Below, piece by piece: positions 12,587-14,090 of a stretch of 64,000 bases of DNA (its first letter is position 1; every line of letters starts with the position of its first letter). A program made the position numbers and the translations under genes. The notes under the pieces were generated by a model, which was not told the origin of the DNA, made no database searches, and was given only the letters and a program-made list of their open reading frames with translations. The stretch is from Mobula hypostoma. Lineage: Eukaryota. Where the stretch lies: the NCBI RefSeq assembly GCF_963921235.1, contig NC_086107.1, positions 102,674,001 to 102,738,000 of the forward strand, written 5' to 3'.

Positions 12587-14090
12587 AATGTTTCAGGCCA
12601 AGACCCTTCTTCAGGACTGGAAAGGAAGGGGGAGGACGCCAGAATAAAAGGGTGAAGGGGAGGGGAAGGAGGCCAGCTGGAAGGTGAGAGGTGAAGCCAG
12701 GTGGGTGGGAAAGGTAAAGGGCTGGAGAAGAAAGAATCTAATAGGAGAAGAGAGTGGACTATGGGAGAAAGGGAAGGAGGAGAGGATGCAGAGGGTAGGG
12801 ATAGGCAGGCGAGAAGAGGCAAAAGGCTAGAGTGGGGATTAAAGAAGAGGGGGAAAGAAATTACCGGCAGGAGATAATGTGTATCCATGTTCATTCCAGA
12901 TCTGGACTGCAGCTGGTAAATTGTTAACAGTTACAGTGATGCCCACGTCTGTGTTTACTGGATTTTTCCACAGTGACTATTTCCTCATTCCTCAAATCAG
13001 TGATGCAAAATTTAAAGGCACCAAGTCCTGTGTGTATCTCCATTTTAATTGTGTTTATCTGTTCCAAATCCATTCCTCCTCTCACCTCAATCTCTGATGC
13101 TCATGTTTGCTTTCTGTTGCAGGAATGTTTTGATAGCAAACCCAGGTTAATAAGCAAGAAGATGAAGGATGATGCTTCTTTCTGTTCCAATCCAGAAGTT
13201 AAGCACAACTTTGAGGAGAACAAGTGAGTACGCAGCACCTCGATGGAGGGAATCAGTGGGCAAACGATTTCAGTGTTAATCCTGCATACTGAGGGAATCC
13301 TCATTTGTGCTGAGTAAATTGGCGGCAGTCAGTCAGTTTTGAAGGGCCACCAGTAACGTCAGTACTCCCACGAGCTAGGACAGTGAAACGAATCACCCTG
13401 GCTTCCTGTTCCTTAACACTTAGATTCTTCCTAGAAGGTGTGTGCATGGTGAAACTGAGGAAGGGACAACTCTTAGTTGTGATACCAACTGTGATTATAG
13501 CTTGTTGCTTGTTCCTGCTCTCCGCCCAACTCAAACCGTGAAGTATTAGTTATCTGGGCAGAGTGTTGGAGCCAATCACACAAGGGAAATAGACAGAAAG
13601 TATTCTCTAATGTTGATGGATTTTTGTTTGAAAAGATGGAAATATACACAGGATTTGCTAGCTTTAAATTTTGCATCGCTGATTTGCGGAATGGGGAAAT
13701 AGTCACCGTGGGAAAAATCCAGTAAACTCAGACGTGGGCATCACTGTAACTGTTAACAATTTACCAGCTGCAGTCCAGATCTGGAATGAACATGGATACA
13801 CATTATCTCCTGCCGGTAATTTCTTTCCCCCTCTTCTTTATTCCCCACTCTGGCCTTCTGCCTCTTCTCGCCTGCCTATCCCTACCCTCTGCATCCTCTC
13901 CTCCTTCCCTTTCTCCTGTGGTCCACTGGCCTCTCAGATTCCTTCTTCTCCAGCCCTTTACCTTCCCACCTACTTGGCTTCACCTATCACCTTCCAGCTG
14001 GTCCCCTTCCCCTCTCCCTCACCTTTTCATCCTGGCGTCCTCCCCCTTCCTTTCCAGTCCTGACAAAGGGTACCGGCCCAAAACATCAAC
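12587..14090. repeat. Inverted duplication (arms about 12587-13046 and 13631-14090) flanking exon 13123-13223
   Basis: 12840-12951 is the exact reverse complement of 13729-13840; mirror ORFs MNMDTHYLLPVISFPLFF lie on opposite strands. Confidence 0.95.
13123..13223 (+). CDS. ZC3H7A: ZC3H7 coding exon (ECFDSKPRLISKKMKDDASFCSNPEVKHNFEENK)
   Basis: ttgcag|GAA acceptor, AA|gtgagt donor, phase 0/2, 101 nt. Motif CFD.KPR.ISK. Confidence 0.95.

What the first reader, a model, noticed from the sequence alone, without database searches (positions are those of the whole stretch)
12587..14090. Inverted duplication with a 112-bp perfect core brackets a single 101-nt exon
Seen: ~460-bp arms (12587-13046 and 13631-14090) enclose exon 13123-13223 in a ~580-nt loop. 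Each arm contains PLE-derived sequence plus sequence not seen elsewhere in the window, so this looks like a local inverted duplication rather than two independent insertions. 12840-12951 and 13729-13840 are exact reverse complements, while the arm ends have many mismatches, suggesting gene conversion or selection for pairing. Inference: the pre-mRNA stem could loop out the exon, and skipping 101 nt would frameshift and trigger NMD. It could also promote back-splicing to a circRNA, attract A-to-I editing, or allow the exon to invert by recombination.
Basis: partly seen in the sequence, partly recalled or inferred. Interest (0 to 1): 0.72.

Follow-up and report, generated by a model that had tools for sequence, protein, structure and literature searches.

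The report
Retroelement-made inverted repeat around stingray exon
Two mirror-image 460-base copies, part retroelement and part unique DNA, flank a conserved coding exon of a ray's ZC3H7B gene; they were likely inserted by a Penelope-like retroelement and likely stay identical in the middle through gene conversion, and the one RNA data set examined includes the exon with no sign of skipping.

Summary
In detail: arms 12585-13046 and 13633-14089 (90% alike, exact 112-bp core) bracket a 101-nt ZC3H7B exon. It is neither an assembly artefact nor a dispersed repeat. Sequencing-run contigs of a second species show the same core, and the inner 147 bp is single-copy.

New here: the right arm lies between 9-bp direct repeats, and the left unit between 7-bp ones. 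These look like target-site duplications, so the arms are probably two head-to-head insertions of one chimeric Penelope-like copy carrying 147 bp of passenger DNA. The pair predates three relatives, two of them about 6% diverged.

The centre looks homogenised by gene conversion: 3 differences in 188 bp against 14-17% at the ends, and a different identical tract in a relative. Selection for an RNA stem is unsupported. There are 14 G·U against 16 A·C mismatches, and the inner arm decays at about the neutral rate. The exon's segment is present in 118 of 120 homologues. One RNA run shows inclusion and unedited right-arm contigs, although contigs hide rare isoforms.

Verdict: a real, probably neutral transposon-derived inverted pair with an unusual origin. 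The skipping, NMD and circRNA reading is untested at read level and currently unsupported.

The parts
11060..11265 (+). Upstream ZC3H7B coding exon (CCCH finger)
   Evidence: Translation; weak zf-CCCH hits below cut-off; 68 of 68 aa identical to a record named ZC3H7B of a stingray
12493..12499 (+). Left copy of a 7-bp direct repeat flanking the left unit (8 of 9 matching with the next two bases); putative target-site duplication
   Evidence: chance 343 of 50,000 to 692 of 50,000 in post hoc windows
12502..12899 (-). 5'-truncated Penelope-like fragment of the left unit (decayed ORF end, 3' UTR, hammerhead-like motif at 12614), antisense to the gene
   Evidence: Alignment to six other window copies; ORF end compared with the copy at 59.4-59.6 kb; motif survey
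12585..13046 (+). Left arm of the inverted repeat
12764..12951 (+). Homogenised centre (3 differences in 188 bp), containing the exact 112-bp core 12840-12951 that straddles the retroelement/passenger junction
12900..13046 (+). Single-copy passenger DNA (147 bp) shared by both arms, source unknown
   Evidence: Only partner in the window; single-copy depth in three DNA runs; no Rfam match
13048..13054 (+). Right copy of the 7-bp direct repeat of the left unit
13123..13223 (+). 101-nt ZC3H7B coding exon in the 586-nt loop; branch region, acceptor and donor lie outside the stem
   Evidence: Homologous 33-34 aa segment in 118 of 120 relatives; covered at depth 12.2 in RNA run X9; fold
13611..13619 (+). 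Left copy of a 9-bp direct repeat flanking the right arm; putative target-site duplication
   Evidence: chance 9 of 20,000 (tight windows) and 170 of 20,000 (loose windows)
13633..14089 (+). Right arm: passenger DNA, then a Penelope-like 3' fragment in gene-sense orientation ending just past a decayed hammerhead-like motif (14060-14084); 13 unmatched bases (13620-13632) precede it
13729..13840 (+). Right copy of the exact 112-bp core
   Evidence: same letters in organism B and in RNA run X9
14091..14099 (+). Right copy of the 9-bp direct repeat; its first four bases also continue the element's own sequence (microhomology)
15082..15263 (+). Downstream ZC3H7B coding exon, where a skipped transcript would meet a stop

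Best explanation
The two arms are likely two head-to-head insertions of one chimeric Penelope-like copy (retroelement 3' end plus 147 bp of passenger DNA), placed on either side of a conserved ZC3H7B exon, and their middle has likely been kept identical by gene conversion, probably without a selected role in splicing. Shown: the arms, their shared retroelement/passenger junction, the flanking 9-bp and 7-bp direct repeats, the identity gradient, and the right arm's outer junction in three relatives. Inferred: the flanking repeats are target-site duplications; one cDNA served both sites, which would explain why both arms start at nearly the same passenger base; non-crossover recombination between arms about 1 kb apart copied 100-250 bp tracts, probably more than once; crossovers would flip the exon and be purged. 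The pre-mRNA stem is predicted to form, but strong splice sites in the loop likely keep the exon included, with at most minor leak to NMD.
For: (1) Origin. A 9-bp direct repeat bounds the right arm (null 9 of 20,000 tight, 170 of 20,000 loose; 39 of 50,000). A 7-bp repeat bounds the left unit right at the element's 3' end (null 343 of 50,000). A head-to-head insertion of the same family at 52343-52796 has a 14-bp flanking repeat. The arms have the polarity of the family's own head-to-head insertions. Such inverted 5'-truncated partners are typical of Penelope-like elements (PMC8557442, passages). A Poseidon protein nicks and extends both strands and prefers ATT (PMC11167929, main text); the left repeat begins with ATT. 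(2) Common ancestry. 7 of 140 informative outer columns are shared derived. At 12634 both arms read G where 95-99% of the laid depth reads A in all four runs. (3) Age. Contigs spanning the right arm's outer junction exist in B, C and E. C and E differ from the window by 41 of 727 and 19 of 292 letters in the loop. (4) Homogenisation. At the ends' rate, about 27 differences are expected in the central 188 bp and 3 are seen. In C the loop contig ends symmetrically at 12979/13700, so C's identical tract reaches 13008, 57 bp further in. One contig (12847-13008) accounts for all C depth in the 12910-13001 bin, and no separate right-arm contig covers 13701-13737 (predicted 11.87 and 4.96, seen 11.9 and 4.96). 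At least 4 of its 8 differences from the window fall where the window's two arms agree, so the shared sequence is not frozen. (5) No selection for pairing. There are 14 G·U against 16 A·C mismatches (p=0.86). Duplex energy is not consistently better on the sense strand. At 12972, 12985, 13018 and 13034, E's left arm (and C's at the last three) carries the window's right-arm letter, so four perfect pairs in 95 bp were lost on the A/B branch. (6) Inclusion. RNA run X9 has depth 12.2 at 13125, at 13181 and on the 1177-letter contig through 15082-15200. Bin depths fit coverage of exactly 13121/3-13223. The segment is present in 118 of 120 homologues.
Against: The flank windows for both direct repeats were chosen after seeing them, and a 7-mer is weak (about 1%). 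Of 11 other insertions tested, 6 gave a repeat of 7 nt or more and 5 gave none; only the 14-mer is convincing alone. No source of the passenger DNA was found. Evidence that conversion recurred after the split from C is modest: p=0.013-0.033 and 0.029-0.080. Assemblers can merge near-identical arms (recalled behaviour), and C's shared contig has depth 9.79 against 8.3, 6.08 and 4.66 for single-copy contigs, which does not prove two identical copies. B's shared contig runs 25 letters past the window's core, which means either merging or a further conversion. 203 variant rows were hidden, so letters inside the core could not be read for C or E. E's inner right arm was not resolved. Only 1 of the 6 listed RNA-like runs with a share of the words was laid; it is contigs, tissue unknown, and could hold DNA. 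Its only coverage of unique intron lies on the right arm (13555-13904, depth 5-8), which this explanation does not account for. At 13642 the window matches the left arm where B and C do not, which fits conversion but also selection.
Confidence: 0.6

Rival explanations
1. DNA-level inverted duplication: the 147 bp was native intron next to an older Penelope-like insertion, and repair of a staggered break about 570 bp downstream copied element plus flank in reverse. Later conversion homogenised the centre, as in the best explanation.
For: It explains proximity, inversion and the lack of a third copy (single-copy depth) without needing a chimeric RNA. The right arm's 3' end has 4-nt microhomology to its flank and 13 unmatched bases at its 5' end.
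Against: It needs the 7-bp (8 of 9) repeat that bounds the left unit, at the element's 3' end and 1 nt from the arm's inner end, to be chance (343 of 50,000).
Confidence: 0.25
2. One reading: the stem is kept by selection because it loops out the exon (frameshift, NMD), promotes back-splicing or attracts editing, tuning ZC3H7B levels.
For: The predicted duplex is very stable (427 of 462 bases paired). It is the only inverted pair of more than 250 bp found within 5 kb around any of 13 approximate exon positions. Skipping gives a stop 104 nt before the next junction. Inverted Alu pairs are enriched around skippable human exons (PMC13019027, abstract and passages). The pair has persisted in three relatives. 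Right-arm RNA contigs exist in X9.
Against: There is no G·U excess (14 against 16), and an exact Watson-Crick run without wobble is not what helix selection needs. The inner arm lost four perfect pairs on one branch at about the neutral rate. The exon has a strong acceptor and donor, whereas the Alu effect favours weak acceptors. The exon is included and the right-arm contigs are unedited in X9. Exon length favours circularisation, and 101 nt is short (PMC6376182, passage). PMC13019027 also finds many inverted pairs around constitutive exons and only a small energy difference.
Confidence: 0.1
3. Assembly or polishing artefact: the arms were wrongly merged in the core.
Against: Organism B (another study) shows the same inner edge of the exact repeat and the same letters. 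An RNA-like run from another sample of organism A reads 13742-13904 with 0 differences. The left-arm letters of the core are inferred from the symmetric contig ends, not read separately.
Confidence: 0.02

Closest known systems
Inverted Alu pairs that loop out exons (TBXT case; PMC13019027, abstract and passages; PMC13019944, search listing)
   Same: Retroelement-derived inverted pair in the two introns around one short exon, predicted long pre-mRNA duplex, splice sites left in the loop.
   Different: The arms are sister copies sharing 147 bp of non-repeat DNA, not independent family members. The centre is exactly identical. The exon is frameshifting, strongly defined and conserved, and skipping was not seen.
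Head-to-head insertions of Penelope/Poseidon elements (inverted 5'-truncated copy next to the element; PMC8557442 passages, PMC11167929 main text)
   Same: Same polarity (3' ends outward), 5'-truncated copies, hammerhead-like motif, short flanking direct repeats; adjacent versions occur in this window (8966-9123, 16678-16824, 52343-52796).
   Different: The two copies are 586 nt apart with a host exon between them. Each has its own flanking repeat, and both carry the same passenger DNA. In the passages read, the inverted copy is immediately adjacent.
Inverted repeats homogenised by gene conversion (palindrome arms; repeats at human polymorphic inversions, PMC3961182 passages)
   Same: Central tract of a few hundred bases far more alike than the ends, with lineage-specific tract edges; conversion tracts are typically a few hundred bases.
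   Different: The arms are much shorter. The enclosed segment is a single coding exon, so inversion would give a null allele (inferred) rather than a tolerated polymorphism.

Membership tests
Penelope-like element (Penelope/Poseidon) | C-terminal GIY-YIG endonuclease | tested here: inconclusive
   The ORF end of a longer window copy (59411-59626) has GIY-YIG clusters as nearest features at 0.89, a lead only; no Pfam hit. The arms hold only about 10 decayed codons of this end.
Penelope-like element (Penelope/Poseidon) | Telomerase-like reverse transcriptase in the same ORF | not tested
   No full-length copy was sought; the copies examined are 5'-truncated and no genome is held.
Penelope-like element (Penelope/Poseidon) | Hammerhead motif in the terminal repeat | tested here: met
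   The core pattern (recalled) matches 7 places in the window, 2 with an intact core. The right arm's copy has lost G8 and the GAAA G; G8 is needed for cleavage (PMC11167929). Rfam did not report it.
Penelope-like element (Penelope/Poseidon) | 5'-truncated, high-copy insertions often with an inverted partner | tested here: met
   Depth 1e5-1e6 over the 3' part in three DNA runs; head-to-head copies in the window.
Loop-out exon-skipping inverted pair | Complementary arms in both flanking introns able to pair | tested here: met
   427 of 462 left-arm bases pair with the right arm in the MFE.
Loop-out exon-skipping inverted pair | Skipped isoform exists and depends on the arms | tested here: inconclusive
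   Inclusion seen, skipping not seen, in 1 RNA-like run of contigs, which drop rare forms; dependence is not testable here.
circRNA-promoting or ADAR-edited intronic duplex | Back-splice junction or A-to-G clusters in the arms | tested here: inconclusive
   Two right-arm contigs (182 and 163 letters) have 0 differences; the left arm is uncovered; 2364 joints were hidden; heavily edited reads may not assemble.
Gene-converted inverted repeat | Central tract more alike than age allows | tested here: met
   3 of 188 against 44 of 275, p=6e-8; permutation 31 of 200,000.
Gene-converted inverted repeat | Both arms share species-specific changes | tested here: inconclusive
   At least 4 of 8 differences in C's shared contig lie where the window's arms agree, but assembler merging cannot be excluded.
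Dispersed composite repeat | Whole arm present in many copies | tested here: not met
   Single-copy depth over the inner arm in B, C and E at 85% likeness.

The most novel reading that the evidence does not exclude
One Penelope retrotransposition event nicked two sites about 560 bp apart on either side of an exon. It laid down a chimeric cDNA at one nick and primed the second strand from the other, giving a 'split' head-to-head insertion with captured non-element DNA. This would be an undescribed route by which these elements manufacture long exon-bracketing inverted repeats. Conversion then keeps the stem perfect, so it could act as a self-renewing loop-out or NMD switch on ZC3H7B in rays, a counterpart of Alu pairs outside primates.
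Probability: 0.12. Interest if true: 0.62.

Novelty: new variant of a known kind. Interest (0 to 1): 0.3.

Why it matters
The later steps of Penelope integration are stated to be unvalidated (PMC11167929). Two separately bounded, inverted copies with one shared passenger and one shared 5' end would be a fossil of second-strand priming at a second nick. With so many copies in ray genomes, this is testable genome-wide. The locus is also a useful caution: a perfect stem around a frameshifting exon can arise and be renewed by conversion with no splicing role. If regulated skipping were found, it would extend Alu-type loop-out control to cartilaginous fishes.

Tried and rejected
No whole genome is held, so copy number and orthologues came from one laying of four runs. 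No RNA holder is on record as RNA; X9 is a guess. At 85% likeness, repeats swamped the joints and loose-ends tables, so skip and back-splice joints could not be read directly. E's inner right arm and X9's left arm had no resolved cover, which proves nothing.

Rfam found no RNA family in the arms (whole window; 8800-15300: only hairpin-type microRNA models below threshold elsewhere). Pfam did not name the element's ORF end. An active hammerhead cutting the pre-mRNA was rejected: the sense copy lacks core bases. An exon scan by simple rules was noisy and was replaced by tblastn. Two homologues lacked the segment: one partial protein ends there, and one model has a different 27-aa stretch.

The scan's earlier findings returned nothing. 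Searches listed no paper on this locus or on split head-to-head Penelope insertions (0 papers); the library lacks most subscription papers. No supplements were opened.

Full report
Observation. The inverted repeat is as described. Local alignment pairs 12585-13046 with 14089-13633 over 463 columns, 47 of them differing (43 events). The longest exact run is 112 bp at 12840-12951 / 13729-13840; random placement of the events gave such a run in 31 of 200,000 trials. It is the strongest inverted match in the window's self-comparison. The profile is a gradient: 31 differing columns in the outer 179, 3 in the next 188, and 13 in the inner 96 (Fisher p=6e-8).

Host gene. The upstream exon's 68 aa are identical to a record named ZC3H7B of a stingray. 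That protein maps along the window at 84-100% identity in most blocks, so the organism is a ray close to it. The enclosed exon is 13123-13223 with a pyrimidine-rich acceptor and a gtgagt donor. A 33-34 aa homologous segment sits between the flanking exons' peptides in 118 of the 120 proteins listed (194 passed the threshold and 120 were listed). Skipping gives a stop after 25 codons, 104 nt before the next junction, which fits the recalled NMD rule.

Anatomy. Each arm is a 5'-truncated fragment of a very abundant repeat joined to 147 bp of single-copy DNA. The repeat has a hammerhead-like motif (7 pattern matches in the window), head-to-head insertions, and an ORF end whose nearest features are GIY-YIG clusters at 0.89 (a lead only; no Pfam hit). 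Repeat homology ends at about 12899 / 13781, so the exact core straddles the junction. Depth in three DNA runs falls from 1e5-6e5 over the outer part to 12-26 over the inner part, and the inner part has no other match in the window. The arms are sisters: 7 of 140 informative outer columns are shared against six other copies, with 13 private to the right arm and 6 to the left. At 12634 both read G where 95-99% of laid depth reads A.

Origin. The right arm lies between two copies of TGTTGATGG (13611-13619, 14091-14099), expected by chance in 9 of 20,000 tight and 170 of 20,000 loose windows. The left unit, from the element's 3' end at about 12502 to 13047, lies between two copies of ATTGTGT (12493, 13048; 8 of 9 with two more bases), expected in 343 to 692 of 50,000. 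These windows were chosen after the fact. Of 11 other insertions checked, 6 gave a flanking repeat of 7 nt or more and 5 gave none; the 14-bp repeat around the head-to-head copy at 52343-52796 is the clear case. If both repeats are target-site duplications, the passenger is part of both insertions and both start at nearly the same base. The simplest account is one chimeric cDNA used at two nearby nicks. This agrees with a Poseidon protein that nicks and extends both strands, prefers ATT and is predicted to be a dimer (PMC11167929, main text read), and with the family's habit of leaving an inverted truncated partner (PMC8557442, passages). The step is inferred. The main rival, DNA-templated copying at a staggered break, needs only the 7-bp repeat to be chance.

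Relatives. I laid four of the 24 listed runs on 12450-15200. B differs by 6 letters and 1 gap in 836. Its loop contig ends at 12922 and 13758, exactly 30 letters inside each core copy, and a contig with 0 differences covers 13729-13865 at depth 19.4 against 12.4. This rules out an artefact of this assembly (a word length of 31 for these contigs is assumed). B's identity in the core is uninformative about constraint (1.6 changes expected, P0=0.2). C differs by 41 letters and 5 gaps in 727. Its loop contig ends symmetrically at 12979 and 13700, so its arms are identical out from 13008, through three sites that mismatch in the window. One contig covers 12847-13008 with 8 differences from the left arm, and bin depths leave no room for a separate right-arm contig at 13701-13737. 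At most 4 of the 8 can lie at sites where the window's arms disagree. E's left arm carries the window's right-arm letter at 12972, 12985, 13018 and 13034, and C's does at the last three, so these mismatches arose on the A/B branch. All three relatives have contigs across the right arm's outer junction, so the pair predates them.

Why the centre is identical. At the ends' rate about 27 differences are expected in 188 bp and 3 are seen, so something homogenised it. Selection on an RNA helix predicts tolerated G·U pairs and a sense-strand advantage. The data show 14 G·U against 16 A·C, with part energies favouring the sense strand for the inner part and the antisense strand for the outer part. 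Four perfect pairs were lost in 95 bp on one branch. A wobble-free exact run, nested in a wider near-identical tract whose edge differs between species, fits conversion, whose tracts usually span a few hundred bases (PMC3961182, passages). That conversion recurred after the split from C is only modestly supported (p=0.013-0.033; 0.029-0.080). The C evidence is weakened because assemblers can merge near-identical arms, C's depth ratio is ambiguous, and 203 variant rows were hidden.

Splicing. The duplex is predicted to form (427 of 462 bases), with branch region, exon and donor left unpaired to the arms. In X9, an RNA-like run of organism A, depth is 12.2 at 13125, at 13181 and on a 1177-letter contig that runs through 15082 unbroken. 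Bin depths correspond to 65, 38 and 36 letters, the exon boundaries. Inclusion is therefore the assembled form; the exon piece itself was not listed, so its belonging to that contig is inferred from depth. Two intronic contigs on the right arm (13555-13736, 13742-13904) have 0 differences, so no editing was seen. Rare skipped, circular or heavily edited molecules would be lost in contigs. That the only unique-intron cover falls on the right arm is unexplained. In humans, inverted Alu pairs are enriched around skippable exons, mostly those with weak acceptors, yet are also common around constitutive ones (PMC13019027, abstract and passages). Longer exons circularise better (PMC6376182, passage).

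Verdict. The structure is real, older than three related species, and probably neutral. Its likely origin as a split head-to-head Penelope-like insertion with passenger DNA is the unusual part; searches listed no description of such a case, within a library that lacks most subscription papers, and no supplements were read. Interest 0.3; new variant of a known kind.

Noticed in passing
13954-14124: The right arm supplies a pyrimidine-rich acceptor, and a GTGAGT donor follows at 14125. The 171-nt cryptic exon would be in frame without a stop, and the stem would mask its acceptor. X9 has no depth at 14106-14197, so it was not seen.
   Followed up: partly
13555-13904: The only unique-intron cover in RNA-like run X9 is on the right arm and 78 nt before it (depth 5-8 against 12 for exons); the left arm and loop have none. 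Strand and nature unknown.
   Followed up: partly
13642: B and C read G and the window reads A, which matches the left arm: a single change on the window's branch that restores identity between arms.
   Followed up: partly
15264: X9's mRNA contig appears to end at the 3' edge of exon 15082-15263 (64 letters beyond 15200), suggesting a branch such as alternative splicing or intron retention there.
   Followed up: no
8966-9123, 11916-12105, 16678-16824, 43856-43944, 52343-52796: Head-to-head palindromic insertions of the same repeat; the last has a 14-bp flanking direct repeat, and the first keeps an intact hammerhead core pattern.
   Followed up: partly
52450-52794 and 59028-59376: Inverted pair of a younger repeat subfamily, 92.6% alike with differences spread evenly (longest exact run 42), downstream of the gene: a contrast to the gradient in the finding.
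   Followed up: partly
21282-21474 / 22329-22518; 16954-17132 / 18539-18716; 10350-10451 / 11341-11433: Local direct duplicates in introns at 95%, 90% and 79% identity.
   Followed up: no
13232-13339: In organism E this stretch just after the donor is replaced by 58 letters.
   Followed up: no
63158-63380: Fragment of large-subunit rRNA on the minus strand (65.6 bits).
   Followed up: no
33812-34259: Degenerate tandem array.
   Followed up: no
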